Assembly (NCBI GenBank): GCA_030038605.1
Contig: JASHSU010000152.1
Span: forward strand, 285-64,284
Origin: Thermoplasmata archaeon
GTDB taxonomy: Archaea > Thermoplasmatota > Thermoplasmata > Lutacidiplasmatales > UBA184
Reading direction: 5' to 3'
Length of the DNA stretch: 64,000 nt
Positions 35,947 to 56,346 of this stretch are shown piece after piece. The notes below the pieces were generated by a model. It was not told the origin of the DNA. It did not search any database and worked only from the letters and a program-made list of their open reading frames with translations. Position 1 is the stretch's first letter. Every line of letters begins with the position of its first letter. Both the position numbers and the translations under genes were made by a program.

Positions 35947-36831
35947 GTGCCGGCGCGCCGGGCGACGCAGGTCCGCCTCATTTACGGCGATGCCCGCTCG
36001 ATGCCGACCGTCCCGGACCGGTCGGTCCACCTGGTCGTCACGTCCCCGCCGTACCCTATGATCCCTCAGTGGGACCACCTCTGGAAGGAACTGGGCGCCA
36101 CGGAGTACGCGGGCATGCACGACGTCCTCGAGCTCGCTTGGGCCGAGTGCCGCCGGGTCCTCGTGGACGGGGGCCTCCTGGCGGTCGTCATCGGCGATGC
36201 CCTGCGCTCCGACCGGTCCGGCTTCGCCCTGTGGCCGAACCACGCCGAGACCCTGGTCCGCGTCGCACGACAGGGGCTCCGACCCCTGCCGTACATTCTC
36301 TGGAAAAAGCCGACCAACAAACCGAACGCGTTCCTGGGGAGCGGCTTCCTTCCTCCCAACGCCTACGTCACGCTGGACTGCGAGTACATCCTGCTGTTCC
36401 GGAACGGCCGCCTGCGCCGCTTCCCGCCGCACGACCCGGCCCGGTCGGCCAGCCGGTTCACGCGGGACGAACGCGACCACTGGTTCAGCCAGGTCTGGGA
36501 GGACGTCCGGGGAGCACCCCAGCGGCGCGGCTCAGGCCGGTCGGGCGCCTTTCCGGCGGAGATCCCGCGTCGGCTCATCCGCATGTTCTCGGTGATCGGG
36601 GACACGGTCCTCGACCCGTTCGCCGGCACGGGGACGACCGTGCGGACGGCATGGGAGCTCGGCCGCAGCGCGGTCGGCGTGGAGATCGACCGTGCGGTCT
36701 ACGACGACCTGGTCCGAACGTCGTGGCGACTCGGGCCGTCGCCCGGACGGGCCGACGGCGTCAGGGGTCCGGCGCGACGGTCCGGCGCGGGTCGGTCGCC
36801 GGGGTCGGCGGCCGTTCGGTCCGGTGCGTGA
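35947..36831 (+). CDS. Beta-class DNA methyltransferase, probably N4-cytosine (SPPY motif)
   Basis: Motif IV VVTSPPYPM precedes motif I DPFAGTGTT, the order typical of the beta class. SPPY is typical of N4mC enzymes. A TATA-like GCTATTAACGG lies at ~35918. Confidence 0.7.
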   Translation: MPARRATQVRLIYGDARSMPTVPDRSVHLVVTSPPYPMIPQWDHLWKELGATEYAGMHDVLELAWAECRRVLVDGGLLAVVIGDALRSDRSGFALWPNHAETLVRVARQGLRPLPYILWKKPTNKPNAFLGSGFLPPNAYVTLDCEYILLFRNGRLRRFPPHDPARSASRFTRDERDHWFSQVWEDVRGAPQRRGSGRSGAFPAEIPRRLIRMFSVIGDTVLDPFAGTGTTVRTAWELGRSAVGVEIDRAVYDDLVRTSWRLGPSPGRADGVRGPARRSGAGRSPGSAAVRSGA

Positions 36832-37270
36832 GCTCCTCGTCGATCGCGGTCCGAAGGTACCGGAGGGCCGAGTCGCCGAGCCGGTCCATGTGCAGGAGGA
36901 GATAGTGGAGGTAGATCCGTTCCGGACGGTGGAGCGGACTCATCGAGGGTACCGCCGTGGGCGTCGCGTGCCGCGCGAGGGTCTCCTGATGGTGCTCGTA
37001 CCGCCGCCCGTGGACCTCGCGACCCGTCGGGCCGACCAGGGGCGGAGAGAATCGGTCGACCGGGTCGTACGGAGGGTCGGTCGCGGTGCCCGCGGTCGGG
37101 CGAGGCCCGGGGGATCGCGGCGCGAGGCGCCCGGCGAGGTACGGGTGGACGGGCTTCTCCGGATCCTGGAGGTCCTCGACCGGCCGGCCGGCGACGTCCT
37201 CCACGATCGTCTTGAGGCTCCAGCTCGTGCGCCGACGAGCGGGCCCTTCGGCCGTTGCTTCCGCGGCCAC
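36761..37270 (-). CDS. Possible small protein downstream of the ATPase (doubtful)
   Basis: An ORF 25 nt downstream of the ATPase stop. The sequence is partly Pro/Arg/Thr-rich, and its C-terminal 60 aa (MSPLHRPERIYLHYLLLHMDRLGDSALRYLRTAIDEELTH...) overlaps the 3' end of the MTase on the opposite strand. Confidence 0.2.
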   Translation of the reverse strand: MAAEATAEGPARRRTSWSLKTIVEDVAGRPVEDLQDPEKPVHPYLAGRLAPRSPGPRPTAGTATDPPYDPVDRFSPPLVGPTGREVHGRRYEHHQETLARHATPTAVPSMSPLHRPERIYLHYLLLHMDRLGDSALRYLRTAIDEELTHRTERPPTPATDPRRTVAPDP

Positions 37271-37294
37271 GCCGGGACCCCGGCGGACCGGGCC

Positions 37295-38962
37295 TCATAA
37301 ACCATCCTCTGGACCCGAACCGGCCGGACGGACCGCCAGAGCGCTGCTCAGAAACTCGTACTCCGGCGTGGATGCCACGAGAGCCAGCGGGAGGTGGAGT
37401 TCCCCGACCCGCCACAGCGACTCCGAGTACCCGACCGCTCGCGGCAATCTCGCCCGAGGCAGCCAGGCCGCTTCGGCGGCCGTGAGGCCGAAGAAGGTCC
37501 GCGCTGCCTCGGAGACCTCGCCCAGATGGAGAAACCCGGTGGCGTACAGATTCCGAAGGGTGGACCGACCGCTGGGCGTGGTCAGGAAGTCGTCCGGGTT
37601 CTGGCTGAGCAGGAGAAGGCCGGCGCGGAAATGGCGGATGTGGCGGACCGTCCGGTCCAGAAACTCCGCGGCCGCGGGGTGGCGCGCCAGAAGGTGGGCT
37701 TCGTCCAGCAGGACCAGGGTCGGTCCTCCGTGGTCCCGAATTCTCCCGTACACCCAGTCGAGCAAGTACGTGAGGTGGAACCCCAGGTGCTCGTCCGGGA
37801 CGCCCGACAGGTCGAAACAGAGCGGGCTCGCGTCGGTCCGCACCGTCGTCGGGCCGTTCGCCCCCGCCAACGAGCCCGACCGGAACACGTCGAGCAGCAC
37901 CCGCAATCGGTCGGACGACCCCCCACCCGGTGGGAGGGCCGCCATCAGGTCGTCGAACGTCGGGACGGCGGGCCCGTCCTCGTACAGGCGCCGAACGGCC
38001 GCATCGAGGACCGCCCCCTCCTCGTCCCGGAGGGAGGGGTAGAGGGCCCGCAACGCCGTCACGACCCGGGCCGACTTCTCGACGCGGTCGCCGGAGGTGG
38101 TCACCGGGTCGAGGGGGTTGACCCGACCCGCGGTGGGATCGGCCAACCGGAGGACCCGTCCCCCCATCCGCTCGACGAGGGAACCGAACTCCCCCAACGG
38201 GTCGAGGACGACGAGGTCGAGGTCCGGCGTCGTCCACCGGGTACGGAGGGCGAACAGGGCCGCGGCGAACGATTTTCCGGAGCCCGTGGTGCCGAACAGC
38301 CCCCAGGAATGGCTGGCGTGGTCCCATCGGTTCAGGAACACAGGGCTCGCGTCGGCCAGGGCGAGGCCGATCAAGATCCCGTTCGGTTCCAGCAGGGACT
38401 CGTCGCCGAACGGAAAGAAGGCGGCCACGGCGTCGGTGGGTAGGGTGTGCCAGAAGCTTCGAGGCCGAGATTCGGATCCGTCGAACTCCGGAGGCCGAAC
38501 GGCGTCCGACACCTCGTACGTCGGGACCCGAGGACGGAAACCGAGGGACGTGAGTCGGTCCGCGAGCCGCGAGCGGGCGCGGGCCACGCGAGCCCGTCCG
38601 GCGGTGCGCGCCTCGAACACGATGCCGACCCTCCACAACTCCTGGACCCTTCGCGCGACGGCCCGGGCGAGGTCGTGTGCCGACTCCTGCTCCGCTTCCA
38701 GTCGGGACGTCTCCGCGCCGGGCGCGGGCGCGGTCATCTCGGCCGCCGCCACCGTCCGGGCTCGCTCGAGCAACTCAACGGCCCGGTCGGTCGGCACCGG
38801 AAGGAGCTGCAGCACGAGTTCCACGGGCTCGGTCGTCGGGAGGACCTTCTCCAGGAATCCGAACGCGACCTCCGACGGGAGTCGTTCGACCAGCAACGGG
38901 GCCCGGCACCCCGCACCGCGGACTTGGAGGGTCGGTTCGACCCGGATCTCTCGGTCGGTCAC
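37295..38962 (-). CDS. VirB4/TrbE-like (HerA-FtsK superfamily, CedB/TedB-like) DNA-transfer ATPase
   Basis: GTG start at 38962 preceded by GGAGGAGAGGA. Walker A FGTTGSGKS, Walker B LVLLDEAHLL and an SQNPDD sensor-like motif. About 555 aa. Confidence 0.65.
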   Translation of the reverse strand: MTDREIRVEPTLQVRGAGCRAPLLVERLPSEVAFGFLEKVLPTTEPVELVLQLLPVPTDRAVELLERARTVAAAEMTAPAPGAETSRLEAEQESAHDLARAVARRVQELWRVGIVFEARTAGRARVARARSRLADRLTSLGFRPRVPTYEVSDAVRPPEFDGSESRPRSFWHTLPTDAVAAFFPFGDESLLEPNGILIGLALADASPVFLNRWDHASHSWGLFGTTGSGKSFAAALFALRTRWTTPDLDLVVLDPLGEFGSLVERMGGRVLRLADPTAGRVNPLDPVTTSGDRVEKSARVVTALRALYPSLRDEEGAVLDAAVRRLYEDGPAVPTFDDLMAALPPGGGSSDRLRVLLDVFRSGSLAGANGPTTVRTDASPLCFDLSGVPDEHLGFHLTYLLDWVYGRIRDHGGPTLVLLDEAHLLARHPAAAEFLDRTVRHIRHFRAGLLLLSQNPDDFLTTPSGRSTLRNLYATGFLHLGEVSEAARTFFGLTAAEAAWLPRARLPRAVGYSESLWRVGELHLPLALVASTPEYEFLSSALAVRPAGSGPEDGL

Positions 38963-39306
38963 TCCTCTCCTCCACGGGCCCCGCCCCTCTCCGCGAAGGC
39001 GAGGGGCAAAGTGCAGGCCCCCAGGATGGCTCCTCTCCAGACGTCGATCGGCGCGGCCCGAGCGAAGAAGACCACTGCCCCCAACGCGAGAGCGCCGAGG
39101 GCACCGACCGCCGACCGGGTCATCCTGGCCGTGGCTCCACCGTGTCGGGAACGGGCGGCCAGCCAACCCACCAAGGCCAGGACGGCGAGCGTCGCGGTCA
39201 GATCGGCGAGCGCCGGGTCGAGGACGGAGAGGAGGCCGCTCAGAAAGCCCCCTCCGGACGTCCACCGCAGGACGCTGAACCCCCCGAAGAGCTCGCCCGC
39301 GGTCAT
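38959..39306 (-). CDS. Small 3-TM membrane protein (VirB3-like candidate)
   Basis: 115 aa with three hydrophobic helices. ATG at 39306. Start and stop overlap both neighbours. Confidence 0.45.
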   Translation of the reverse strand: MTAGELFGGFSVLRWTSGGGFLSGLLSVLDPALADLTATLAVLALVGWLAARSRHGGATARMTRSAVGALGALALGAVVFFARAAPIDVWRGAILGACTLPLAFAERGGARGGEE

Positions 39307-40082
39307 GGATCCGGCGGGGTGAGGTTCCAGCCCGCGGCGGAGACGGCGGCCCCGAGCGCCCGCCCCTCGAGCACGGTAGGGCCCACGGCCAGGGTCGCCA
39401 AGCCGTCCGCGAGGGCCCTCGCCCGCTCGCGGACCCGTCGCCCGCCCTCGGCGGTCGCGTTCTCCGAGAGGAGGAAAAGGTCGACGCGCCGAGCCCGTCG
39501 CCGGAGGCACAACACCCGCACCAGCTCCGTGTACCCCGCCCGGGCCGGCGCGAGCGACGGCGCGCCGTCGGCCGTGCGGGGGAGCATCGGCGCCGCGTCG
39601 ACGGGCACGGAGTAGGCCCGGAGGACCAGTGCTCCGGACACGCCCCGAAGCACGTCACGGAACCGGTCGAAGAGGCCGGCCAGGTCGTCGGGCGGCCGAT
39701 AGGCGAGCGGCACCCCGTCGGTGCGTACGGCCGCCAGATAGCGACCGTCGCTCCGACGGGCGATCGGCCCTTGAACCCGCGGCACCGCGCGGGGGCTCAC
39801 GCCGACCCCCGGCCGAAGGCGGATCCACCGAAACCGTACCCAGCGCACCATCCGTTCGTCCGCGCTCTCTCCGTCCACTCGGCCGACCGCGACGGCGAAG
39901 CCCACGATCGGAAAGGGAAGCCAGAATCCCAGCGGCAGCCACGTCGCGAGTACGGCACCCGCGGCCGCCCAGCAGAGGAACTTGAGCGCGTCCCGCACGC
40001 TGGGGAAGGGCCCGAGTCGCATCCGTCGGTCGACGCGCTCCGGCAGGTAGACCACCGGGGCGCCTTCGGCGGGATCCGGCAT
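39303..40082 (-). CDS. Membrane-anchored protein (N-terminal TM hairpin plus ~190-aa soluble domain)
   Basis: TM segments FLCWAAAGAVLATWLPLGFWLPFPIVGFAVAV. The stop overlaps the downstream start. Confidence 0.45.
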   Translation of the reverse strand: MPDPAEGAPVVYLPERVDRRMRLGPFPSVRDALKFLCWAAAGAVLATWLPLGFWLPFPIVGFAVAVGRVDGESADERMVRWVRFRWIRLRPGVGVSPRAVPRVQGPIARRSDGRYLAAVRTDGVPLAYRPPDDLAGLFDRFRDVLRGVSGALVLRAYSVPVDAAPMLPRTADGAPSLAPARAGYTELVRVLCLRRRARRVDLFLLSENATAEGGRRVRERARALADGLATLAVGPTVLEGRALGAAVSAAGWNLTPPDP

Positions 40083-40083
40083 C

Positions 40084-41214
40084 TCACCGGCCGACTCCGG
40101 ACCTCATCGGGGGGAAATCGGACGTGCGGGGGCCCCCGGCGGAGCGAACATGTCGAACCAGATGCGTCGCGGCGTGCCCGAGAGCCGTCCCGATCGCGAG
40201 CGGGGCCGACACGGGAACCGCCGACGAACCCGCCGCTCGGACGGTGGCGGCGACCGACGGCCCTGCTCCACCTCGGGTGGGCAAGGCGGAGGTCGGCCCA
40301 CTGGCGACCGAGGCGGCCGCCGACGAGGGAGCCGACAGGCCGCGTTGAACGCCGGCGGACGCGATGCCGCCCCCGGACGGGAACCCGAAGGCGGCCAGAT
40401 GGGTACCGGCAACGGAGATGAGATACGGCGAGGCGAGGGCGGCTCCGAGGTATCCGAGCAGCAACACCGGGCTGGTCGTATCCACGGCCAGCTGCAGGGG
40501 AACGACCATGACGCAGGGCATGAACGCCAGTTCCCCGAACAGGAGCCAGGCCCGTCGGGGGATGGTCGAAAGGGGCTGCAGAGGCCACAGCAGCGAGAAC
40601 AAGGGAAGCAGGACCAGGAGGACCGAGAGCAGGGCGTCCCGCACTCCGACCGCGAGGATCAGCCCGATGACCGCGAGAAACTCGGCGACCGAGAGGACCA
40701 GAGCCAAGGCCCCGTTATCCCAGGAGAACGACAGCTCGCCCCAGCCGGCGAGGTTCGACCAGTGTTGCCAGGCCCCTCCGTTCCACCCGGACAGCACCGG
40801 GTAGAGTGAGCCCGCCACGTCCAGGAGCCCGGTTGAAATCGGGACGGTGAAATTCGCGACCAGCACCGCCACCACCAGTCGGGGAAGAAGGGCATCCAGC
40901 CGTGCGCCCCACCGTTCGACCGTGGCCCGAACGAGGTAGAGCAGCCCGACCCCCGCGGCGACGAGCGCGATGACGGGGTCCACCGCGCTCGTAACCACGT
41001 CGGTCGAGAACTGGGTCGCGGTGGACAGGAAGTCACCGTTCGACTCCAGACCCGCCCGAACCGGAGGAAAGAGGGCGGACGGCTGGAGGAGCGGCACGAG
41101 CAGATTGTCGTACGTGGGCCCGGTGACCGCCGCGACGATCGCCGTGAACACCGAAAACAGCGCGAAGAGGATCGCCTGGACGATGGCCGACCAATCGATG
41201 GAGAGGGCGAACAA
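40084..41214 (-). CDS. Polytopic membrane protein (>=6 TM) with Ser/Ala/Gly-rich C-terminal tail. Candidate VirB6/TrbL/CedA-like channel component.
   Basis: Hydropathy read manually. It lies 10 nt after the pilin-like gene. Confidence 0.45.
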   Translation of the reverse strand: MFALSIDWSAIVQAILFALFSVFTAIVAAVTGPTYDNLLVPLLQPSALFPPVRAGLESNGDFLSTATQFSTDVVTSAVDPVIALVAAGVGLLYLVRATVERWGARLDALLPRLVVAVLVANFTVPISTGLLDVAGSLYPVLSGWNGGAWQHWSNLAGWGELSFSWDNGALALVLSVAEFLAVIGLILAVGVRDALLSVLLVLLPLFSLLWPLQPLSTIPRRAWLLFGELAFMPCVMVVPLQLAVDTTSPVLLLGYLGAALASPYLISVAGTHLAAFGFPSGGGIASAGVQRGLSAPSSAAASVASGPTSALPTRGGAGPSVAATVRAAGSSAVPVSAPLAIGTALGHAATHLVRHVRSAGGPRTSDFPPMRSGVGR

Positions 41215-41224
41215 CGACCCCTCC

Positions 41225-41617
41225 TCACGTCCCCGTCAACACCCAGTGCGCGAGACCCCAGAACAGCCCGGTGATCGCGGCGACGAACAGCAGGGTCCCG
41301 ATGAGAGCATCCCGCGCCCGGTCCTTGGCCTGGACCTTCTTGGTGATGTCGTTGGAGAACCAGCTGAGGGCGACGCGGGCCCAGACGAGGGACAGCAGCC
41401 CCGAGCCGGCCAGTCCGAGCAGCTCGACCAGGCGATTCACGGAGGCCGTGAAGTTGTCCACGGCCGGTGACTGCGCCACCCTGCCCCCCTCGAACTCCAC
41501 CGGGGCGACTCCGGTGGCAGAGGCCGGCGGGACCGCGGGGGGATGGACCGAGGAGATCGACCCGGCCGTCGCGATGGCGACGACCAGGAGGCAGCCGAGC
41601 CAGAGTCCGACGTTCAT
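41225..41617 (-). CDS. VirB2/TrbC-like pilin candidate (signal peptide plus two hydrophobic helices)
   Basis: MNVGLWLGCLLVVAIATAGSISS signal peptide, then helix 1 (LVELLGLAGSGLLSLVWARVALSWF), a charged loop (SNDITKKVQAKDRARD), then helix 2 (ALIGTLLFVAAITGLFWGLAHWVL). ATG at 41617 overlaps the upstream stop (ATGA). Confidence 0.45.
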   Translation of the reverse strand: MNVGLWLGCLLVVAIATAGSISSVHPPAVPPASATGVAPVEFEGGRVAQSPAVDNFTASVNRLVELLGLAGSGLLSLVWARVALSWFSNDITKKVQAKDRARDALIGTLLFVAAITGLFWGLAHWVLTGT

Positions 41618-43800
41618 TCGAGCTCCCACGCCAGGATTTCGCCGCCGTCTGGTTCTCGCTCGGATCGTACGCGCCCTTCCGCGATCAGGCGGTCGAGCGT
41701 CTGCCGCGCCCGCTCGAGCGGCACACCGCGCTCCTCCGCCAGCAGCTCGACGGTCACCCGGTCCGCACCGTCCGCCGGGCGCAGGAGGTCCTCGAGCACT
41801 CGCTCCGCGTCGGGTCCCGGTGCGGGCACGGAAGGCGCGCGTCGCCGACGTAAGATCCAGACGGAACCGGCCGCGACCGCGACCAGCGCGGCCACGAGGG
41901 CCGCCAACCCCAGCGCGTCGGCCGAGGGAGCGCTCGGCGGCGGAGGACCCGGTGGCGAAGGCGCCGCGGCCGGGAGGTCGAGCGTAAGGTTGGCCTGGGC
42001 GTCCACTCCTCGCGCGTCGCGCAGCGCCACGGCGAGCGTCAGGTTTCCTGATCCGGTCACCCTCGCGGACGCGGCGGTGGCCCCTGCGCCGAAGCGCGCG
42101 CTCCACTCCGTGGCGTTGGAGACGTTGACCCAGCCCTGGTAGGGAGGTACCCCTCCGGTCGGGTCGAGGGTGAAGTTCACCCACGAAGGGCTCGCCCCGG
42201 CCACGCTGACATTCGAGATACGAACGGTCGGGGCCGCGGGAAGAGCCACGGACTCCGTGACGTCGGTCCAGGCACCGGCGTCGTCGAAAACGCCGAGCGT
42301 GACATTGACGACCCCTTCCTCGCTGCGCGACGCACTCCAGGACCAGGACGTGACCCCCGTTAGAGCCGTCATCGACGACGAGTTGGCGAAGCCCACGCCG
42401 GGACTGAGTGTCCACAGGTACGGTGCCGATCCACCCGAGACGGAACCCCGGAGGCCCACGCCGGACGATGCAGCGCCGATCCACACGGAGGCCTGAGCCT
42501 CCAGTGCCAGCTTCGGGGCCACGGCCAAAGTAAGGTTGGCCGCCCGCGCCTCCACGCCGAGGCCATCGGTCACCGAACCGGTCCAGACCGCGAGACCGTT
42601 CGCCGACGGAGTCCATGGGAGGAGGAGATCCCCGTCGACCGGTTCGGGACCGAGGATGCGCCCTACGCCGTCCGGTCCAGTCAGCGTAATCCAGAAGGGG
42701 GCAACCCCCCCGGTCACGGTCACACGCAGGACCGATGCGACCCCGACGTCCGTGACCGGTGGGGTCGCCCGGAGTCCCAATGCGAGCGCACCCGCCACCG
42801 GCTCCAGGTACGTCGATCGAAAGGTCTGGGAGGCCACTAGGCCCTCGACGACGACCGACACGGGGAACGGTCCCGAGAGACTCGGCGTGCAGACAACGTC
42901 CGAGACGTTGCCCGAGCCACCCGAGTCGACCGACGAGCCGCACGCGACGATGTGGTGGGAGGGGCCCACGGGGTGGACGACGGTCGTCGCAAAGCTCACC
43001 GGCTGACCGGCCTCGGCCTCCGGTACCGAGGCAGCGATCCAGGCTGTGGTACCGTTGGAGACCGCCACCGGCTCGGGGGCGACCGCCTCCGTCGTCGCAC
43101 CCTGCTGGTCCGTGACCTGAACCGAGGGGATGTACACTCCGGCCCCGTAGGTGTGGAGGAACCGGACCGTACCCGGCGCGCCTACCGTCTGCTCACCAAA
43201 GGTTCCGTCGCCCCAACTCACATTGAGTTCATACGGGGCCAGACCGCCCTCGAGGGTGGTCGTCAACGTAACCCAGTCCGAAACGACCTGCGACCCCGGG
43301 CGGACGGAGAGGTTGGTCAGCGTGAGGGGTGCGTAGTCGGTCCCGCGGGCGAGCGCGATCTGGTCTTCCGTAGTGTTCCCGGAGGAACAATCGATGGCGA
43401 CCGCCGCACGGGCGCCCACTTCGTACGGCCCCGACTCGAGCGGGGAGAGTGCCACCGTCGTCGACGACGCATTCGGGTCGTCGAAAGTGCCGGCGACCGA
43501 GCTGTTCGCGGGCCAGAACCAACGCGTCCACACGGGGTCGAGCGTGCAATTGGCCGGCGCCGAGCCCCAGCGGGCACTCGCCGTGACGGTCATCGCGCTC
43601 ACGTTCGCCCCAGTCAGGTCGACGGAGAGGGCGACGGGGACACCCGTCGAGCTCGAACCGGAGAACTGCGGGACGGCGGACAGTGGGTGGCTGGGGGCCG
43701 TCGGAGAAACGGACGGTAGAACACTCAGCAGGGCCAAGAACCCCACCAGCCACCAAGCACGTCGGACGTACTCTCCCTCCGGGCCTCGGATCGTCGTCAT
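41614..43800 (-). CDS. Secreted PKD/Ig-like-repeat surface protein with C-terminal TM anchor and a cytoplasmic helix-turn-helix-like tail
   Basis: Signal peptide starts at the internal ATG at 43800 (MTTIRGPEGEYVRRAWWLVGFLALLSVLPSVS). PKD hallmark VSWGDGTFGE and many N-x-S/T sequons. TM anchor LGLAALVAALVAVAAGSVWIL. A cytoplasmic ~60-aa tail (ERVLEDLL...RARQTLDRLIAEGRV) follows. Confidence 0.55.
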   Translation of the reverse strand: MTTIRGPEGEYVRRAWWLVGFLALLSVLPSVSPTAPSHPLSAVPQFSGSSSTGVPVALSVDLTGANVSAMTVTASARWGSAPANCTLDPVWTRWFWPANSSVAGTFDDPNASSTTVALSPLESGPYEVGARAAVAIDCSSGNTTEDQIALARGTDYAPLTLTNLSVRPGSQVVSDWVTLTTTLEGGLAPYELNVSWGDGTFGEQTVGAPGTVRFLHTYGAGVYIPSVQVTDQQGATTEAVAPEPVAVSNGTTAWIAASVPEAEAGQPVSFATTVVHPVGPSHHIVACGSSVDSGGSGNVSDVVCTPSLSGPFPVSVVVEGLVASQTFRSTYLEPVAGALALGLRATPPVTDVGVASVLRVTVTGGVAPFWITLTGPDGVGRILGPEPVDGDLLLPWTPSANGLAVWTGSVTDGLGVEARAANLTLAVAPKLALEAQASVWIGAASSGVGLRGSVSGGSAPYLWTLSPGVGFANSSSMTALTGVTSWSWSASRSEEGVVNVTLGVFDDAGAWTDVTESVALPAAPTVRISNVSVAGASPSWVNFTLDPTGGVPPYQGWVNVSNATEWSARFGAGATAASARVTGSGNLTLAVALRDARGVDAQANLTLDLPAAAPSPPGPPPPSAPSADALGLAALVAALVAVAAGSVWILRRRRAPSVPAPGPDAERVLEDLLRPADGADRVTVELLAEERGVPLERARQTLDRLIAEGRVRSEREPDGGEILAWELE

Positions 43801-43882: not shown

Positions 43883-44554
43883 CTACCGACGGGGCGCGGG
43901 GCGGACGAACAGCGCGACGTGGTCACGAGCGAATGGCGCGAGCGGGATCTCGGAAGTCACGCGAAGTCCGGCCGACTCGATCTCGTCCCGCGCCTCCCGA
44001 ACGATCGCACCCGCCGGGCGGGATTGCGTGACCGAGCGGATCTTCAGCATGAAGAGGCCCCGTCCGCCGGGCCCCAGGGCCACCCGGGCATTCTCGGCAA
44101 AGATCGCGGCCTGGTTCCGCTGCGCGACGTCCTGGTAGAGCAAGTCTACCAGCCCTGTATCCGCCCGGTACCGCTCGGGCAGCTGGGCGTCGGCGAGGAT
44201 CGGGAAGATGTTGGCGCGACGACGGGCGAGCGCCAGGAGCGGGGCGAACGCCGTCGGGCTCTTCTCGACCACGAACAGGTCCGCCTCCGGCACCACGTCC
44301 GACAGATGGCTCACGGTCGTCCCGTGCGCGCCTCCGAGGTAGAGGACCGACCCCACGCCCGCGAACAGATCGTTCGGGGCTCCGCGCGTCAGGACCGCCG
44401 CGAGCTTCGACCGGAACGGGTCCCACATCCGGTACTCGGTCGCGCCGTCACGGCGCAATCGCTCCCCGTAGACCCGGTCCCCCGGTGGGCCCCGATTGAC
44501 CGTGTAGAGGTCCCGACCGTCGCGATAGACGCCCGCCCAGGCCGTCGCCTCCAC
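43883..44554 (-). CDS. flpA: Fibrillarin-like rRNA/tRNA 2'-O-methyltransferase
   Basis: VYGERL...EYRMWDPFRSKLAA...VLYLGGAHGTTVSHLSDVV...NIFPILADAQLPERY...DLLYQDVAQ are the fibrillarin SAM-MTase blocks. Confidence 0.85.
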   Translation of the reverse strand: MEATAWAGVYRDGRDLYTVNRGPPGDRVYGERLRRDGATEYRMWDPFRSKLAAVLTRGAPNDLFAGVGSVLYLGGAHGTTVSHLSDVVPEADLFVVEKSPTAFAPLLALARRRANIFPILADAQLPERYRADTGLVDLLYQDVAQRNQAAIFAENARVALGPGGRGLFMLKIRSVTQSRPAGAIVREARDEIESAGLRVTSEIPLAPFARDHVALFVRPAPRR

Positions 44555-44560
44555 GGCCGC

Positions 44561-45001
44561 TCACTCGACGGCGACGACCATCTCGACCTCGACCGGTGCA
44601 CCGAGCGGTAACGAGGTCACGCCGACGGCCGCCCGCGCCGGGCGGCCGACCTCTCCGAAGAGGTCCACGAGGATGTCGGTCGCCCCGTTCGCCACCTCAT
44701 GTTGCTTCACGAACCCCGGGGAGGACGCGACGTACACCGTGACCCGGACGACCCTCGCCACGCGGTCGAGCGAGCCGAGCGCGTGCGCGAGGGCGCTCAA
44801 CGCCTGGAGGGTCGCCTGTTGAGCGATCTCCTTAGCGGTCTCGATACGGACATCCTGGTCGACGAGCCCCGGGGCGACGATGCGCCCCTCCTGGGTCACG
44901 ATCTGTCCGGAAACGTAGGCGAATCCACCCGCGACCGACACCGGCGCGTACGTCCCCTTCGGCGTCGGCGGCGGGGGCAATCGGACCCCCAGCCCGGCCA
45001 A
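44561..45001 (-). CDS. RidA/YjgF/TdcF-family reactive-intermediate deaminase. The start is uncertain: TTG at ~45001 or at 44980.
   Basis: PKGTYAPVSVAGGFAYVSGQI...ETAKEIAQQATLQALSALA...VRVTVYV...AVGVTSLPLGAPVEVEMVVAV is the RidA fold pattern. It is the 3' part of track ORF 44561..47242. Confidence 0.6.
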   Translation of the reverse strand: MAGLGVRLPPPPTPKGTYAPVSVAGGFAYVSGQIVTQEGRIVAPGLVDQDVRIETAKEIAQQATLQALSALAHALGSLDRVARVVRVTVYVASSPGFVKQHEVANGATDILVDLFGEVGRPARAAVGVTSLPLGAPVEVEMVVAVE

Positions 45002-45108
45002 TCGGGCGGTCGTTCCGGACGGCACGTCCTCCCGAAGCGTTTCGGTAGAAAACGCCGCGGTCCGATGGAGCCACAGCCCTAAAAACGAGGTCCGACCATC
45101 GTAGGGCG

Positions 45109-47373: not shown

Positions 47374-48531
47374 ATGCCGCACGTCGCGGGCGCCCGTTTG
47401 ACCGTCGAACTCCCTCAGCCGCCGGCGGCGGCGTTCGCTCAGGTGGTGGACGAGCTCGTCGAGACGCTCGAACGGGCCGGACTGGAATTCGCGACCGGGC
47501 CCCGCGGGTCGGTCACGGACTTGGGCGCGCCGGTCGCTCGGGTGACCGCCTGGTCGCCGGGACGGGAGTTCGCCCTGCGCTGGAACTCGACCCCGTGGGG
47601 CGCCGAAACGCCGGTCGACTTCGCCGCCCGTTTCGACGCGACGCCGGACGGATCCCGGCTGACCGTCACCGTGGACGGAGCGCCTCGACTGGTGAACGAG
47701 GACCCGACCGAGTGGACCGGCTGGGTGGTCACGGCCCTCGGAGGGCCGGTCGCCCGGGCGCTCACGCCCCGCGGCTTCGGGGACTGGCTCACCGACCGCC
47801 GCGCCCGGCGGCCGTCCGGCCCGTCCGCCCGGTCCATCTACGGGGATCCGGTCTTCCACCGCCCGAACTTCCGCCTCCTGCTCGACACGCTGCACCCCGG
47901 CCCGTCCGACCGTGTGCTCGAGGTCGGGTGTGGCGGGGGTGCGCTTCTCGCCGAGATGTTGGCCCGGGGGGCACGGGCGGTGGGCCTCGACCACAGCCCG
48001 GAGATGGTCCGCCTCGCCCGAAGCGCCAACGCCGCGGCCGTGGGGGACGGCCGTCTCACGGTAAAGGTCGCCGACGCCGGCCGTCTCCCGGTCCCCGATG
48101 CCGCGTTCACCCTCGCCGTCTCCACGGGCGTCTTCGGTTTCCTGCCCGAGCCGGGCGCGACGCTCCGGGAGATGCATCGCGCGCTGGCGCCCGGGGGTCG
48201 GTTGGCGGTCTTCGCGGGCACCGCCGAGCTGCGGGGCACGCCCGCCTGCCCGGAGCCGATGGCGTCGCGGATCCATTTCTTCGAGGACGAGGAGCTGGCT
48301 CGGCTCGCGGAAGCCGCAGGGTTCGTCGACGTGGCCGTCACCCACCCGTCGCTCTACGAGTACGCGATCGCCTCCGGCGTGCCGAAGGACGCTCTCGGTC
48401 TGTTCGAGGGGACCGGCGGCAGCCAGTTGTTGACGGCCCGACGGGCGGGCCCCCGCACGCAGCCTACGCGGCCGGCGCGGGGACGGCCGTCCCGGAAAGC
48501 CACCCCTGGCGGTCGAGCTCGCCGAGGATGA
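47374..48531 (+). CDS. Two-domain protein: N-terminal SRPBCC/AHSA1-like domain plus class I SAM-dependent methyltransferase
   Basis: MTase motif I VLEVGCGGGAL and a post-I acidic LD. The family assignment for the N-domain is tentative. Confidence 0.45.
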   Translation: MPHVAGARLTVELPQPPAAAFAQVVDELVETLERAGLEFATGPRGSVTDLGAPVARVTAWSPGREFALRWNSTPWGAETPVDFAARFDATPDGSRLTVTVDGAPRLVNEDPTEWTGWVVTALGGPVARALTPRGFGDWLTDRRARRPSGPSARSIYGDPVFHRPNFRLLLDTLHPGPSDRVLEVGCGGGALLAEMLARGARAVGLDHSPEMVRLARSANAAAVGDGRLTVKVADAGRLPVPDAAFTLAVSTGVFGFLPEPGATLREMHRALAPGGRLAVFAGTAELRGTPACPEPMASRIHFFEDEELARLAEAAGFVDVAVTHPSLYEYAIASGVPKDALGLFEGTGGSQLLTARRAGPRTQPTRPARGRPSRKATPGGRARRG

Positions 48532-49027
48532 ACTCGGCCGACTGCGCGGGCGTCGCGTTCTGGGTCTCGACCACGATCTCGGCGTGCTCGGGCGGCTCGT
48601 AGGGGTCGTCCACGCCCGTCATCTCCTTGATCTGGCCGGCGCGGGCCTTCTTGTAGAGCCCCTTCACGTCCCGGTCCTCGCAGACGGTGAGCGGGGTGTT
48701 GACGTAGACCTCGACGAAGCGGCCGATGGTGGCCCGGGCCTGGGCCCGGGACGACCGGTACGGCGAGATGAGCGTGACGACCGGGATGGCGCCGTTCCGG
48801 GCCAGGAGTTTGGCGCAGAAGGCGACGCGGGAGGCGTGCGTCTCCCGGGACTTGCGGTCGAAGCCCAGGTCGGCCGAGAGCCCCAACCGGATCTCGTCCC
48901 CGTCCAGGAGGTCGGCGTACCAGCCGCGCGCCACCAGTCGGGGGATGAGCTCCTTCCCGATGGTCGTCTTACCCGCGCTCGGCAGTCCGGTCAGCCAGAG
49001 GCAGAATCCCGGCGGTCCCCGTGTCAT
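48464..49027 (-). CDS. cysC: Adenylyl-sulfate (APS) kinase
   Basis: GFCLWLTGLPSAGKTTIG...LDGDEIR...PVVTLISPYRSSR are the APS kinase blocks. Confidence 0.85.
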   Translation of the reverse strand: MTRGPPGFCLWLTGLPSAGKTTIGKELIPRLVARGWYADLLDGDEIRLGLSADLGFDRKSRETHASRVAFCAKLLARNGAIPVVTLISPYRSSRAQARATIGRFVEVYVNTPLTVCEDRDVKGLYKKARAGQIKEMTGVDDPYEPPEHAEIVVETQNATPAQSAEFILGELDRQGWLSGTAVPAPAA

Positions 49028-49039
49028 CGTCCTACGCTC

Positions 49040-50194
49040 CTAGTTCGTCACTTCTCCGCCGGGGCGTCCCAGGATCGCCGCGACCTCCGGCCGGAGGATG
49101 TCCGCCGGCAGGGGCGTCCCCGAGGCGAGCGCCTCGCGGATGCGGGTCTGGCTGGTGGCGCCGTGCTCCGAGGCCGGGTGGGAGCACGTGCGCGCGCTCG
49201 CCATCCAGCCGCAGTGGCGGCAGAAGAACGATTCGTCGTACCGGAGCGGCTGCACCCCGATGTTGAACTCGTCGAAGATCCGGTGGCAGGCGAAGGGATC
49301 GTAGTACTTCCCGACCCCGGCCTGGTCCCGCCCGACGATGTAGGCGGCGCATCCGTAGTTCCGCCGCACGATGGCGAGGAACAGCGCCGCCTTGGGTCCG
49401 CCGTACCGCATCGTGATCGTGAGCGGGCTCATCATCACGTGGGACGGAGGATAGTAGTGGGAGACGAGCGCGTCGTACGCCGCGAGGATGACCTCGGGCT
49501 TGTAATCGCCCTTCTTGAGACGGCCGACCACCGGGTGGATGAACAGCGCGTCGATGTCCTCGCGCTCGAGGGTCAGGCGCTGGATGTACTCGTGGGCGGT
49601 GTGGGGCGGGTTGCGGCACTGGTAGGCGGCGACGCGGCGCCAGCCCCGGCGGGCGAACTCGGCCCGGGTCTCGGCCGGCGTGGGTTCCTCCCGCGGCCAC
49701 GGCGGCGTGAGCCGGTGGAGGAGGTCGACCCGGCCCGCCCAGGCGGTGTCCGAGCCGGCGAGGATGTCCGCGACGTTCGGGTGCTTCGGGTCGTCGGTGC
49801 CGTACGCGCCCTTCGCCAGGGCGGCCCGGTCGAATCGGAACTGTTCCTCGATGTGCAGGAGAGCGATGAGCCGGCCCGTGCCGTCGTCGAGTCCGACCGC
49901 ATCGCCCGGTTTGAGTCCCAGCCGTTCCGCGCCCGCTGGGAGGGGAAAATGGATCGGGATCGACCACGGCAGCCCGTTCGGGAGCCGGCCCGTGGTCCGG
50001 ACCTCCTCGAGGGCGGCGGAGCCCATGAACCCGTCCAGCGGACTGTATGCCCCGATGCCCAGCTTCTCCACGTCGTAGAGCTGGTCGATGAACGGCGTGA
50101 CCCGCGGCAGGTCCTTCGCCTCGGCGTCGCGCCGGGCGCGCTCGGATTCGCCGACCTGCCGGTCGACGAGACGACCTCCGTACGGTTCGATCAT
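49040..50194 (-). CDS. sat: Sulfate adenylyltransferase (ATP sulfurylase)
   Basis: QCRNPPHTAHEYIQ (QTRN/HxxH region) and GRD-loop context, 384 aa. Confidence 0.85.
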   Translation of the reverse strand: MIEPYGGRLVDRQVGESERARRDAEAKDLPRVTPFIDQLYDVEKLGIGAYSPLDGFMGSAALEEVRTTGRLPNGLPWSIPIHFPLPAGAERLGLKPGDAVGLDDGTGRLIALLHIEEQFRFDRAALAKGAYGTDDPKHPNVADILAGSDTAWAGRVDLLHRLTPPWPREEPTPAETRAEFARRGWRRVAAYQCRNPPHTAHEYIQRLTLEREDIDALFIHPVVGRLKKGDYKPEVILAAYDALVSHYYPPSHVMMSPLTITMRYGGPKAALFLAIVRRNYGCAAYIVGRDQAGVGKYYDPFACHRIFDEFNIGVQPLRYDESFFCRHCGWMASARTCSHPASEHGATSQTRIREALASGTPLPADILRPEVAAILGRPGGEVTN

Positions 50195-50232
50195 GGCGTC
50201 CGAGCGACGGGCGAGCGGAGAGTCGGGAGTTC

Positions 50233-50997: not shown

Positions 50998-51136
50998 GGC
51001 ACGCTGCTATCGGGGTGAACCCTATTAGAGTCGGAGCGCCGGCGCCGAATTCCGGGTCGTGCGCAGAATCCGCACGTCGCCGGCGATACCGCCGCAATTC
51101 TGTCGCATCTGGCCGGCCGAACTGCGAACCCGCCGT

Positions 51137-56164: not shown

Positions 56165-56346
56165 GGGGTGCAGTCAAACCGGAATTCTCCCCCCTCGTTA
56201 AACTGACGGTCGCACGGTCCATCTCGGACTCCGCGGGAACCCGAGACGTGCGCGGGCGTCGCGCCGCCTAACGAAGGCTCGCCGAGGTGCTGGTCGAGAA
56301 CGGCGAATTTCGCCAGCGTGAAGTAGTCGCGCTCGGTCGCGCACGC

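What the first reader, a model, noticed from the sequence alone, without database searches (positions are those of the whole stretch)
37295..43800. Conjugation-derived (T4SS-like, Ced/Ted-type) DNA-transfer gene cluster in a high-GC euryarchaeon-like genome
Six co-directional minus-strand genes are chained by overlapping start/stop codons, so they are almost certainly one operon:
- (1) a signal-peptide PKD-repeat surface protein (41614..43800);
- (2) a 130-aa protein with signal peptide plus two hydrophobic helices, the VirB2/TrbC pilin topology shared by CedA1/TedC;
- (3) a 376-aa polytopic protein with >=6 TM helices and a Ser/Ala/Gly-rich tail (VirB6/TrbL/CedA-like);
- (4) a 259-aa protein with an N-terminal TM hairpin;
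- (5) a 115-aa 3-TM protein (VirB3-like);
- (6) a 555-aa ATPase with Walker A GTTGSGKS, Walker B LVLLDEAHLL and an SQNPDD motif (VirB4/TrbE, HerA-FtsK superfamily).
No relaxase, VirD4 coupling protein, VirB11, integrase or plasmid replication gene is present anywhere in the window. That composition is what is described for the archaeal DNA-import systems Ced (Sulfolobales) and Ted (Thermoproteales), which are homologous to bacterial conjugation machinery. Those systems are characterised only in Crenarchaeota. A chromosomal homolog in this thermopsin- and gyrase-encoding ~70% GC genome would be uncharacterised, and the fused surface-adhesin-like first gene is not part of described Ced/Ted loci.
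Basis: partly seen in the sequence, partly recalled or inferred. Interest (0 to 1): 0.85.

Follow-up and report, generated by a model that had tools for sequence, protein, structure and literature searches.

The report
Chromosomal conjugation-like machine in Thermoplasmata archaea
A soil archaeon of the class Thermoplasmata carries, fixed in its chromosome between housekeeping genes, a stripped-down version of the bacterial conjugation (type IV secretion) machine with a pilin, a channel, a membrane anchor and a motor ATPase but no plasmid-processing genes; relatives occur across the phylum and its function has never been studied.

Summary
Window 36761-43800 (minus strand) carries a tightly chained operon, but with seven genes rather than six.

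Gene assignments:
- F is a VirB4-type ATPase (NCBIfam VirB4 CD1110 family E=2e-36; PDB VirB4 4ag5 E=1.5e-26; HerA only weakly).
- B belongs to the VirB2/T4SS-pilin superfamily through a sequence bridge. The fold search was uninformative.
- D, not E, is the PrgI/VirB3-like protein.
- A is an Ig-repeat surface protein with a transmembrane helix and a cytoplasmic winged-helix tail. It is dispensable in some relatives.
- E and G remain unknown.

The cluster sits at the same chromosomal site (fibrillarin | cluster | DNA methylase, HPS) in about 60 species of soil and peat Thermoplasmata. It diverges in step with the housekeeping genes. No integrase, relaxase or VirD4 lies nearby. Distant homologous clusters exist in Aciduliprofundum boonei and in Thermoplasmataceae.

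It resembles Ced/Ted in principle, as a domesticated T4SS without a relaxase. It is not a sequence member of either system. Its gene order and ATPase are closest to the monoderm (MPF-FATA) T4SS. DNA exchange between cells is the most likely function, but this is inferred, not shown.

The parts
41614..43800 (-). Gene A: a type I membrane surface protein of 728 aa. It has an N-terminal signal or anchor segment, then about 600 aa of glycosylation-sequon-rich Ig-like repeats and a Pro-rich linker. These are followed by a transmembrane helix (41851-41907), an RRRR stretch and a cytoplasmic winged-helix domain (41626-41808). It is an accessory component.
   Evidence: ORF and start codon. Weak SprB and PamR (Ig-like) hits, and EutK_C, DUF5817_CT, Rrf2 and MarR hits at residues 670-726. 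The ectodomain is 12-46% conserved and the cytoplasmic tail 60-65% conserved. The profile of the tail hits the HTH regions of PdhR, NsrR, DtxR and Lrp regulators weakly. In L044 the tail is a standalone 103-aa ORF, and A is absent in L045 and L056.
41225..41617 (-). Gene B: VirB2/T4SS-pilin-like protein of 130 aa. It has a signal peptide, a variable linker, an invariant N-F-[ST] sequon and two hydrophobic helices joined by a basic loop (SNDITKKVQAKDRARD).
   Evidence: Alignment showing a nearly invariant C-terminal 75 aa. AF2 model with helices 51-94 and 100-128. 18 of 43 orthologs hit PF18895 T4SS_pilin (best E=0.0027; residues 59-122 against profile positions 4-63 of 71). The profile finds only 33 clusters among 1.84 billion representatives. 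23 of the profile's hits (17 distant, 6 closer) were scanned: 17 hit PF18895 (3.4e-8), 3 hit CagC and 1 hits TrbC/VirB2. Fold searches were non-discriminating.
40084..41214 (-). Gene C: VirB6/TrbL-like polytopic membrane channel protein of 376 aa, with at least 6 transmembrane helices and a disordered Ser/Ala/Gly-rich C-terminal tail.
39303..40082 (-). Gene D: PrgI/VirB3-like membrane protein of 259 aa. It has an N-terminal transmembrane hairpin followed by a cytoplasmic domain of about 170 aa, as in the actinobacterial 'PrgI family'/SCO6880 type.
   Evidence: 9 of 48 orthologs hit PF12666 PrgI (0.008) and 2 of 48 hit TraC_F_IV. 15 of 48 hit NF042935 SCO6880 family (5.5e-7). hhalign against the Embleya plasmid 'PrgI family protein', which sits two genes upstream of VirB4 (one small gene between them), gives E=3.7e-4 over 234 colinear columns. 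The A. boonei ortholog gives E=4e-9.
38959..39306 (-). Gene E: small membrane protein of 115 aa with 2-3 transmembrane helices. It is poorly conserved in sequence but always present between D and F. Its function is unknown.
   Evidence: It is present in 59 loci at 105-130 aa. Alignment with identity to the window protein of about 19-42% (mean column identity 42%). Hydropathy. It shows no similarity to the positional analogues in Embleya or A. boonei.
37295..38962 (-). Gene F: VirB4-family ATPase of 555 aa containing the VirB4 N-terminal and C-terminal domains. Walker A is at 38270-38293 and Walker B at 37694-37717. It has no transmembrane helix.
   Evidence: NCBIfam: VirB4 CD1110 family 2e-36, Mbov_0397 VirB4 2e-26, VirB4_CagE 6e-13, CedD 1e-9, HerA 6e-3. 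hhalign against haloarchaeal and Firmicutes VirB4 gives E=5.7e-37 over F residues 9-543. PDB: 4ag5 VirB4 at 1.5e-26 against HerA-like proteins at >=8.6e-8. It is 27.8% identical over 583 aa to the Embleya plasmid VirB4.
36761..37270 (-). Gene G: conserved cytoplasmic protein of 169 aa and unknown function. It has a His-rich motif and the motif PERLYLHYLLLHMDRL. It is the last gene of the operon in this lineage and is absent from the A. boonei and Thermoplasmataceae clusters.
   Evidence: It is conserved at 42-73% identity in about 50 loci directly after F. No Pfam or PDB match. There is no counterpart in L085, L088 or L089.
35947..36831 (+). N6/N4 DNA methyltransferase, convergent with G, with the two 3' ends overlapping by 71 bp. 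It is a conserved neighbour, and any functional link to the cluster is unproven.
   Evidence: PF01555 at 8.5e-33. It occupies the same position in nearly all related loci. A large N6_N4 methyltransferase also lies convergent to the homologous cluster in A. boonei.

Best explanation
This is a chromosomally fixed, vertically inherited, minimal monoderm-type type IV secretion apparatus of Thermoplasmata.

Proposed assembly:
- B is exported by its signal peptide, probably N-glycosylated at the conserved NFT sequon, and held in the membrane as a two-helix hairpin.
- C (VirB6-like) forms the membrane channel and the platform from which B is extracted and polymerised.
- D (PrgI/VirB3-like hairpin plus cytoplasmic domain), probably together with E, docks the soluble VirB4 ATPase F to the channel.
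- F supplies the energy for pilus assembly and substrate translocation.
- A, where present, adds an Ig-repeat surface adhesin or recognition module whose cytoplasmic winged-helix tail sits next to the machine.
- The roles of G and the neighbouring DNA methylase are unknown.

The machine has lost (or never had) a coupling protein, a relaxase and a cell-wall hydrolase. It is inherited with the chromosome, so it serves the cell rather than a mobile element. The most likely service is exchange or uptake of DNA between neighbouring cells, as in Ced/Ted. The direction of transfer is unknown.

What is shown: the gene set, the homology or fold of F, C, D and (by a sequence bridge) B, the chromosomal fixation and the co-divergence with housekeeping genes.

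What is inferred: the assembly order, pilus formation, and DNA as the substrate.
For: Identity of the parts:
- F is VirB4-type.
- D is PrgI/SCO6880-like.
- B is a T4SS pilin by direct weak hits and by a bridge through distant relatives.
- The gene order B6-B3-x-B4 matches an actinobacterial conjugative plasmid locus and pCF10 prgH-prgI-prgJ (PMC12857230).

Domestication:
- The cluster has the same flanks (DUF885, YjgF, fibrillarin | cluster | methylase, HPS/RraA, pseudouridine synthase) in about 60 species.
- Pairwise divergence of F tracks HPS and DUF885 with r of about 0.82. This is as good as housekeeping genes against each other.
- GC content equals that of the surroundings.
- There is no tRNA at the borders.
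- No VirD4, relaxase or hydrolase was found.
- No relatives were found among viral contigs.

Phylum-wide spread: homologous clusters occur in the Aciduliprofundum boonei chromosome and in Thermoplasmataceae, the latter flanked by housekeeping genes.

DNA as substrate (indirect evidence only):
- VirB4/VirB6/VirB2 sets without a relaxase import DNA in Ced/Ted (PMC9905601, PMC11868833).
- A carries a membrane-tethered winged-helix domain.
- A DNA methylase is adjacent in two distant lineages.
Against: - No experiment or expression data exist for this system.
- The fold search for B returned only generic helical hairpins. No VirB2, TraA, TedC or CedA1 pilin appeared in the top 60.
- Most individual Pfam hits for B and D in this lineage are below the curated cut-offs.
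- No VirB8-like component and no DNA-processing gene (nuclease, HerA, Rad50, ParA, as in Ted loci) lies in the operon.
- The methylase may simply be a syntenic neighbour.
- The winged-helix domain could be a regulator or a protein-protein module.
- A is missing in some relatives.
- The closest non-mobile bacterial analogue, the Patescibacteria T4SS, is thought to serve epibiotic growth, not necessarily DNA transfer (PMC12857230).
Confidence: 0.6

Rival explanations
1. The machine is the same T4SS-derived apparatus, but its job is not DNA transfer. It builds a surface pilus for adhesion or cell-cell contact, or it moves proteins or other molecules between cells. This would resemble the chromosomal, relaxase-less T4SS of Patescibacteria.
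For: - No DNA-processing genes lie in the operon.
- The first gene is an Ig-repeat surface protein with a weak match to the CPR pilus protein PamR.
- B's family is PF18895 T4SS_pilin.
- The A. boonei-type clusters have 5 pilin paralogs, four of them (308-405 aa) with large extracellular N-domains, suggesting an elaborate filament.
- The Patescibacteria T4SS has a multi-pilin cluster and is essential for epibiotic growth (PMC12857230, PMC12102498).
Against: - These Thermoplasmata are not known epibionts.
- The only characterised archaeal chromosomal VirB2/B6/B4 sets (Ced, Ted) move DNA (PMC9905601).
- A winged-helix domain and a DNA methylase are associated with the cluster.
Confidence: 0.3
2. 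The cluster is part of an integrated conjugative element or plasmid remnant that is, or recently was, mobile.
For: - Its closest non-Thermoplasmata ATPase relatives are on conjugative plasmids and ICEs.
- Guglielmini et al. reported one ICE in A. boonei (PMC3158045).
- An orphan DNA methylase is adjacent.
- Small accessory insertions occur within the cluster in some genomes.
Against: - The insertion site and housekeeping flanks are identical in about 60 species.
- The cluster co-diverges with housekeeping genes.
- Its composition matches the genome.
- No integrase, relaxase or VirD4 lies within +-10 kb in any locus.
- There are no IMG/VR relatives.
- Identity to any plasmid VirB4 is below 31%.
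Confidence: 0.05
3. The ATPase is a HerA/FtsK-type repair or segregation motor, and the neighbouring membrane proteins are unrelated to T4SS.
For: Pfam calls only DUF87 ('HerA central domain') at 8e-8. Many database records name the protein 'Helicase HerA, central domain'.
Against: - VirB4 models score far higher than HerA: 125 against 15 bits in NCBIfam, and 96 against at most 34 bits in PDB.
- The alignment to VirB4 is full-length and includes the N-terminal domain.
- The partners are VirB6-, PrgI- and pilin-like.
- No NurA, Mre11 or Rad50 lies nearby.
Confidence: 0.02

Closest known systems
Ted system of Thermoproteales (TedA/TedB/TedC; Beltran et al. 2023, PMC9905601)
   Same: It is chromosomal and lacks a relaxase. 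It consists of a VirB2-like pilin with a cleavable signal peptide, a VirB6-like polytopic protein and a true VirB4-type ATPase. It is conserved within an archaeal order.
   Different: - It occurs in a different phylum.
- No sequence similarity was detectable for B or C against PDB pilins.
- The cluster here is one tight operon with an additional PrgI/VirB3-like protein (D), E, G and an Ig-repeat/wHTH protein.
- Ted loci carry HerA, ParA/VirC1 and Rad50 neighbours, which are absent here.
- No function has been tested for this cluster.
Ced system of Sulfolobales (CedA, CedA1, CedA2, CedB, CedD, CedE; PMC9905601, PMC11868833)
   Same: It has the same logic: a domesticated T4SS derivative (pilin, VirB6-like channel and VirB4/HerA-like motor) used by the cell itself for DNA import or exchange.
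   Different: - The Ced motors are two diverged paralogs (CedB and CedD), each carrying part of the VirB4 N-terminal domain. F is a single complete VirB4 and scores 37 bits against the CedD model (cut-off 600).
- The CedA1 pilin has no cleaved signal peptide.
- Ced depends on Ups type IV pili and is UV-induced, which could not be tested here.
- PMC11868833 states that VirB3 homologs are absent from archaea, whereas D is PrgI/VirB3-like.
Monoderm (MPF-FATA) conjugative T4SS, e.g. pCF10 PrgH-PrgI-PrgJ and actinobacterial plasmid loci (Embleya plasmid NZ_CP108778)
   Same: - It gives the best ATPase family match, the CD1110 VirB4 family.
- It has the same gene order: VirB6-like, PrgI-family, a small protein, then VirB4.
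- D aligns over its full length with the actinobacterial PrgI-family protein.
   Different: - Those systems sit on plasmids or ICEs and continue with VirD4, a relaxase, a VirB8-like protein and a cell-wall hydrolase, all absent here.
- They lack a VirB2-type pilin (PMC12857230), which is present here.
- ATPase identity is only 22-31%.
Chromosomal T4SS of Patescibacteria/CPR (PMC12102498; PMC12857230)
   Same: - It is derived from the monoderm T4SS.
- It is chromosomal, widespread in the phylum and mostly without a relaxase.
- It has VirB2-like pilins, and in the A. boonei-type clusters there are several pilin paralogs.
- A shows a weak PamR-like match.
   Different: - It is bacterial.
- It retains VirB1-, VirB8- and VirD4-like components.
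- It is linked to an epibiotic lifestyle.
- Sequence relationships to the Thermoplasmata proteins are remote.
VirB4 gene cluster annotated in Thermoplasmatales genomes (Cuniculiplasma CSP5_1185-1189: arCOG05340, arCOG04034 VirB4, arCOG05369; PMC5155288)
   Same: It is probably the same system in its minimal form: a membrane protein, a multipass protein, a further membrane protein and VirB4. This matches the pilin-353-250-VirB4 cluster found here in a Thermoplasmataceae MAG.
   Different: It is only listed as 'type IV secretion components' in that paper, with no assignment of pilin, VirB6 or VirB3 and no evolutionary or functional analysis.

Membership tests
Type IV secretion system, monoderm/MPF-FATA type | VirB4-family ATPase (the only ubiquitous T4SS marker) | tested here: met
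   NCBIfam VirB4 CD1110 family E=2e-36 (below that equivalog's own cut-off of 325 bits, so it is a relative and not a member of that subfamily). hhalign to VirB4 gives E=5.7e-37 over residues 9-543. PDB 4ag5 VirB4 gives E=1.5e-26.
Type IV secretion system, monoderm/MPF-FATA type | VirB6/TrbL/PrgH-like polytopic channel protein encoded next to VirB3 and VirB4 | tested here: met
Type IV secretion system, monoderm/MPF-FATA type | VirB3/PrgI-like two-transmembrane-helix protein adjacent to VirB4 | tested here: met
   For D: PrgI hits in 9 of 48 orthologs (0.008), SCO6880 family hits in 15 of 48 (5.5e-7), and hhalign to an actinobacterial PrgI-family protein at E=3.7e-4 over the full length. The support is moderate, and a small gene (E) lies between D and VirB4.
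Type IV secretion system, monoderm/MPF-FATA type | VirD4 coupling protein and relaxase (needed for conjugation of an element) | tested here: not met
   None was found by Pfam on the neighbouring genes. None was found by tblastn with an actinobacterial VirD4 or relaxase against the window and 62 related loci. The rest of the genome could not be examined.
Type IV secretion system, monoderm/MPF-FATA type | VirB8-like (NTF2-fold) protein and VirB1-like cell-wall hydrolase | tested here: inconclusive
   No Pfam or NCBIfam hit of any cluster protein to VirB8/TcpC, and no NlpC/P60 homolog. E and G remain unassigned and their structures were not predicted.
VirB2/TrbC/T4SS_pilin superfamily (protein B) | Sequence membership in a curated pilin family | tested here: inconclusive
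   The window protein itself gives no hit. 18 of 43 orthologs hit PF18895 below the cut-off (best 17-22 bits against 26.6). Of 23 relatives found with the B profile (most of them distant), 17 hit PF18895 (best 3.4e-8), 3 hit CagC and 1 hits TrbC. The bridge is convincing but indirect.
VirB2/TrbC/T4SS_pilin superfamily (protein B) | Signal peptide followed by a two-helix hydrophobic hairpin with a short basic loop | tested here: met
   The AF2 model has helices 3-21 (signal peptide), 51-94 and 100-128, with loop residues 95-99 inside SNDITKKVQAKDRARD.
VirB2/TrbC/T4SS_pilin superfamily (protein B) | Structural similarity to solved conjugative pilins ranking above unrelated folds | tested here: not met
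Ced system (Sulfolobales) | CedB/CedD-type ATPases and CedA/CedA1 proteins recognisable by sequence | tested here: not met
   The CedD model scores 37 bits against a cut-off of 600, and no CedB model hit appears at E<=1. The B and C profiles hit nothing in PDB sequences at E<=10.
Ced system (Sulfolobales) | Induction by UV or DNA damage, and dependence on Ups pili for DNA import | not testable with these tools
   No expression or genetic data are available.
Ted system (Thermoproteales) | TedA/TedB/TedC orthology and association with HerA, ParA/VirC1 and Rad50 genes | tested here: not met
   No HerA, ParA or Rad50 lies within about 10 kb. No sequence hit of B to any PDB pilin. Direct comparison with the TedA, TedB and TedC sequences was not possible because the sequences were not held.
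Integrative conjugative element | Integrase, att repeats or a tRNA target, variable presence, and atypical composition | tested here: not met
   The site is the same in about 60 species. The cluster co-diverges with housekeeping genes. GC content is 0.69-0.73, as in the flanks. The only tRNA in the window is 8 kb away. No integrase was found among the neighbouring genes scanned.

The most novel reading that the evidence does not exclude
Thermoplasmatota as a phylum carry their own anciently domesticated conjugation machine, a third archaeal lineage beside Ced and Ted. It would derive from the monoderm (FATA) T4SS and retain VirB2-, VirB6-, VirB3- and VirB4-like parts. It would build a conjugative-type pilus and mediate chromosomal DNA exchange between cells without a relaxase or a coupling protein. 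The membrane-tethered winged-helix tail of protein A, possibly with G or the adjacent methylase, would take over recognition or marking of the DNA substrate.
Probability: 0.3. Interest if true: 0.8.

Novelty: new variant of a known kind. Interest (0 to 1): 0.66.

Why it matters
Domesticated conjugation machines that move chromosomal DNA are so far documented experimentally only in two crenarchaeal orders (Ced, Ted). Euryarchaeal conjugation is known only from a Thermococcus plasmid.

This cluster shows that a whole, ecologically abundant phylum keeps a complete minimal T4SS as a core chromosomal operon. The phylum includes soil and peat Thermoplasmata, acidophilic Thermoplasmatales and the vent archaeon Aciduliprofundum.

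The cluster includes a VirB3/PrgI-like protein, although such homologs were stated to be absent from archaea. It also includes a VirB2-type pilin, which typical monoderm T4SS lack. It therefore bears on how pilus-forming T4SS evolved.

Carriers such as A. boonei, Cuniculiplasma and Thermoplasma are cultivable. Whether these archaea exchange DNA, and how a T4SS works without a relaxase or coupling protein, becomes directly testable.

Tried and rejected
1. I hypothesised that D is the detached N-terminal domain of VirB4. hhalign of D against haloarchaeal and Firmicutes VirB4 found nothing. Against a Blautia VirB4 it gave only E=0.48. F itself already contains the VirB4 N-terminal domain. The idea is kept only as a faint possibility for the extreme N-terminal subdomain, because 2 of 48 orthologs give weak TraC_F_IV hits.

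2. Profile searches of B, C, D and G against PDB sequences gave no meaningful hits.

4. hhalign of B against the N-terminus of C tested the VirB2-VirB6 relationship reported for CedA1 and CedA. It was not significant, with only a short shared 'RDAL' motif.

5. 6 of 47 C orthologs hit the T2SS platform protein XpsF (5e-6) over about 60 residues. I judged this a compositional match in high-GC hydrophobic helices, because the whole-protein fold search points to VirB6.

6. E was compared with its positional analogues in Embleya and A. boonei. No similarity was found.

7. The exact-sequence lookup of the window's own ATPase returned nothing. The source contig was therefore not retrieved, and the rest of this genome could not be checked for VirD4 or a relaxase.

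8. The promoter and terminator scan of the operon showed nothing above chance, and the sigma-70 model is not appropriate for archaea.

9. The viral-contig scan returned no relatives.

Full report
**1. What is in the sequence**

The window is about 70% GC throughout, so raw ORF lists are full of spurious frames. Two filters were applied: codon-position GC and start-codon context. Together they give one consistent minus-strand gene chain.

| Gene | Coordinates | Length |
|---|---|---|
| A | 41614-43800 | 728 aa |
| B | 41225-41617 | 130 aa |
| C | 40084-41214 | 376 aa |
| D | 39303-40082 | 259 aa |
| E | 38959-39306 | 115 aa |
| F | 37295-38962 | 555 aa |
| G | 36761-37270 | 169 aa |

- The junctions are ATGA (A/B, D/E), GTGA (E/F), a 1-nt gap (C/D), a 10-nt gap with GGAGG (B/C) and about 24 nt (F/G).

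**2. Surroundings**

- The flanks are ordinary archaeal housekeeping genes.
- Upstream lie fibrillarin (43883-44554), a YjgF/RidA protein and a DUF885 protein.
- Downstream lie a convergent N6/N4 DNA methyltransferase (35947-36831), a hexulose-phosphate synthase/RraA fusion, a pseudouridine synthase and a phosphate ABC transporter.
- The only tRNA in the window is 8 kb away.
- No integrase, relaxase, VirD4 or VirB11 was seen among the neighbours.
- tblastn with an actinobacterial VirD4, relaxase and NlpC/P60 finds nothing in the window.

**3. Distribution and mode of inheritance**

- The ATPase has hundreds of homologs at 60-68% identity, all from 'Thermoplasmata archaeon' metagenome bins, on contigs up to 2.3 Mb.
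- A scan of one genome per species found about 60 Thermoplasmata species at 53-69% identity, from soil, peat and acid sulfate soil and including UBA184.
- Identity then drops abruptly to 22-27% for Firmicutes ICEs, haloarchaeal plasmids and Nitrososphaerota.
- In essentially every locus long enough to judge, the cluster lies at the same place between the same housekeeping genes: DUF885, YjgF, fibrillarin | A..G | methylase, HPS/RraA.
- Gene lengths are nearly constant.
- Pairwise divergence of F correlates with that of HPS and DUF885 at r of about 0.82. Housekeeping genes correlate with one another at 0.78-0.80. Mean divergence of F (0.38) is like that of DUF885 (0.36) and fibrillarin (0.33).
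- No relative occurs in IMG/VR viral contigs.

The cluster is therefore a vertically inherited chromosomal operon under purifying selection. It is not a recent mobile-element insertion.

**4. Identity of each protein**

*F.*
- Pfam sees only DUF87.
- NCBIfam ranks the VirB4 CD1110 family (2e-36), the Mycoplasma ICE VirB4 (2e-26), VirB4_CagE (6e-13) and TraC (9e-11) far above CedD (1e-9) and HerA (6e-3).
- Profile-profile alignment to haloarchaeal and Firmicutes VirB4 gives E=5.7e-37 over F residues 9-543, so both VirB4 domains are present.
- The best solved relative is the Thermoanaerobacter VirB4 (4ag5, 1.5e-26). HerA-like proteins score 8.6e-8 or worse.
- The nearest plasmid genes are below 31% identical. 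Most lie on conjugative plasmids of haloarchaea, Actinobacteria and Firmicutes.

*C.*
- There is no curated family hit for the window protein.
- About 30 of 120 homologs carry a precomputed weak PF19590 TrbL_3 hit.

*B.*
- The last 75 residues are almost invariant across species: two hydrophobic helices and a basic loop. They are preceded by an invariant N-F-[ST] glycosylation sequon, a variable linker and a signal peptide.
- 18 of 43 orthologs hit PF18895 T4SS_pilin below the cut-off.
- A profile search of 1.84 billion representative proteins found only 33 clusters.
- 23 of these hits (17 distant, 6 closer) were scanned against Pfam: 17 hit PF18895 (best 3.4e-8), 3 hit CagC and 1 hits TrbC/VirB2.
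- Fold searches returned nothing specific. For a bare helical hairpin this is expected, and I count it as uninformative rather than negative.

*D.*
- 9 of 48 orthologs hit PrgI, the VirB3 equivalent of pCF10.
- 15 of 48 hit the actinobacterial SCO6880 family, best 5.5e-7.
- D aligns over its full length with a 'PrgI family protein' that lies two genes upstream of VirB4, with one small gene between them, on an Embleya plasmid (E=3.7e-4).
- That plasmid locus reads membrane protein, PrgI family, small protein, VirB4, VirD4, relaxase, NlpC/P60. This is the order C-D-E-F seen here, followed by exactly the genes that are missing here.

*E and G.*
- Neither has a detectable relative outside the lineage.

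*A.*
- It is a glycosylation-sequon-rich Ig-repeat ectodomain followed by a transmembrane helix, RRRR and a cytoplasmic domain of about 60 aa.
- The cytoplasmic domain matches the HTH regions of winged-helix regulators weakly but consistently.
- This tail is the best conserved part of A.
- In one lineage it survives as a standalone 103-aa gene (L044).
- In two others A is absent altogether.
- A is therefore accessory.

**5. A wider family**

The distant B relatives led to homologous clusters in other Thermoplasmatota.

- In the Aciduliprofundum boonei T469 chromosome, the cluster comprises a Big-domain surface protein, a bona fide PF18895 pilin and four more pilin-like paralogs with extracellular N-domains. 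These are followed by a 422-aa C homolog (E=3e-16), a 246-aa D homolog (E=4e-9), a 135-aa protein and a 566-aa VirB4 (28% identity to F, E=2e-61). A convergent N6/N4 methylase lies next to it.
- In a Thermoplasmataceae MAG, the cluster is a minimal set of pilin, 353-aa, 250-aa and VirB4 genes between housekeeping genes.
- The Thermoplasmataceae form matches the 'type IV secretion components' listed without analysis for Cuniculiplasma (PMC5155288).
- The conserved core is thus pilin, VirB6-like, PrgI-like and VirB4.
- A, E and G, and the multiplication of pilins, are lineage-specific.

**6. Mechanism**

The assembly model follows from what is established for T4SS (PMC9259494; PMC12857230).
- VirB6 forms the inner-membrane channel and pilin platform.
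- VirB3 tethers VirB4 to that channel.
- VirB4 drives pilin extraction and substrate transfer.

There is no outer membrane or murein here, so no outer complex or hydrolase is needed.

The substrate is inferred, not shown. Three points favour DNA: the Ced/Ted precedent (PMC9905601, PMC11868833), the winged-helix tail of A, and the recurrent adjacent DNA methylase. Two points weigh against it: the operon contains no DNA-processing gene, and the Patescibacteria precedent suggests other roles for a chromosomal T4SS.

**7. Comparison with known systems and novelty**

- The system works like Ced/Ted in principle but is not a member of either by any test I could run.
- Its ATPase and gene order are nearest to the monoderm MPF-FATA T4SS.
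- Unlike typical monoderm systems it has a VirB2-type pilin, a trait shared with the Patescibacteria T4SS.
- Contrary to a recent statement that VirB3 homologs are absent from archaea (PMC11868833), D is PrgI/VirB3-like.
- Searches of the open-access literature found no paper describing this Thermoplasmatota system beyond a gene list. Subscription journals are not covered.
- I rate it a new variant of a known kind.

**8. Limits**

- Only 64 kb of this genome was available, so a VirD4 or relaxase elsewhere cannot be excluded.
- The family assignments of B and D rest on sub-threshold or bridged hits.
- No TedA, TedB, TedC or CedA, CedA1, CedB sequences were available for direct comparison or for a tree.
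- E and G were not modelled.
- Function is entirely inferred.

Noticed in passing
window 41626-41808 (-); L044:6960-7271: The cytoplasmic tail of surface protein A is a winged-helix-like domain and is the best conserved part of the protein. In one related genome it exists as a standalone 103-aa gene in front of the pilin gene, with no ectodomain. A membrane-tethered HTH next to a T4SS channel is unusual and could act as a DNA or partner receptor.
   Followed up: partly
window 35947-36831 (+) and 36761-36831 overlap; L088:18382-20927: An N6/N4 DNA methyltransferase lies convergent to the cluster, with a 71-bp 3' overlap with gene G, in nearly all related genomes. A much larger N6_N4 methylase is also convergent to the distantly homologous cluster in Aciduliprofundum boonei. 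Whether this is functional linkage or coincidence is open.
   Followed up: partly
L088:9273-14132 (A. boonei CP001941); L085:6451-10203: The Aciduliprofundum-type clusters carry five pilin-like genes. Four of them (308-405 aa) have an N-terminal beta-rich extracellular domain of about 230 aa joined by a Gly/Trp-rich linker (GGGSWWGNGG...) to the C-terminal two-helix pilin module. These are possible minor or tip pilins.
   Followed up: no
L087:4739-8342: One distant cluster (GCA_014874235.1) has two tandem DUF87 ATPases (527 and 679 aa) after the pilin and VirB6-like genes. This is reminiscent of the CedB/CedD pair of Sulfolobales.
   Followed up: no
L029:11753-12785: In some relatives (L024, L029, L048) about 1.1-1.4 kb is inserted between F and G. 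In L029 the insert encodes a 153-aa winged-helix protein and a 195-aa protein with an SGDVDIV motif that I read, without running a search, as nucleotidyltransferase-like. I guess it is a toxin-antitoxin or abortive-infection-like pair.
   Followed up: no
window 41447-41455 (-) (B residues 55-57): The sequon N-F-[ST], immediately before the first pilin helix, is invariant in all 43-81 B orthologs. This suggests conserved N-glycosylation of the mature pilin N-terminus.
   Followed up: no
window 51137-56173 (-) and 56272-59346 (+): A 1,678-aa surface protein with only weak beta-sandwich matches lies back-to-back with a 1,024-aa thermopsin-domain protease. Next to them is a sulfate assimilation operon (48464-51006).
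   Followed up: no
window 43883-45100 (-): Fibrillarin is preceded by a YjgF/RidA gene rather than by the Nop5 (Nop56/58) gene that I recall usually accompanies it in archaea. This arrangement is conserved across the related genomes.
   Followed up: no
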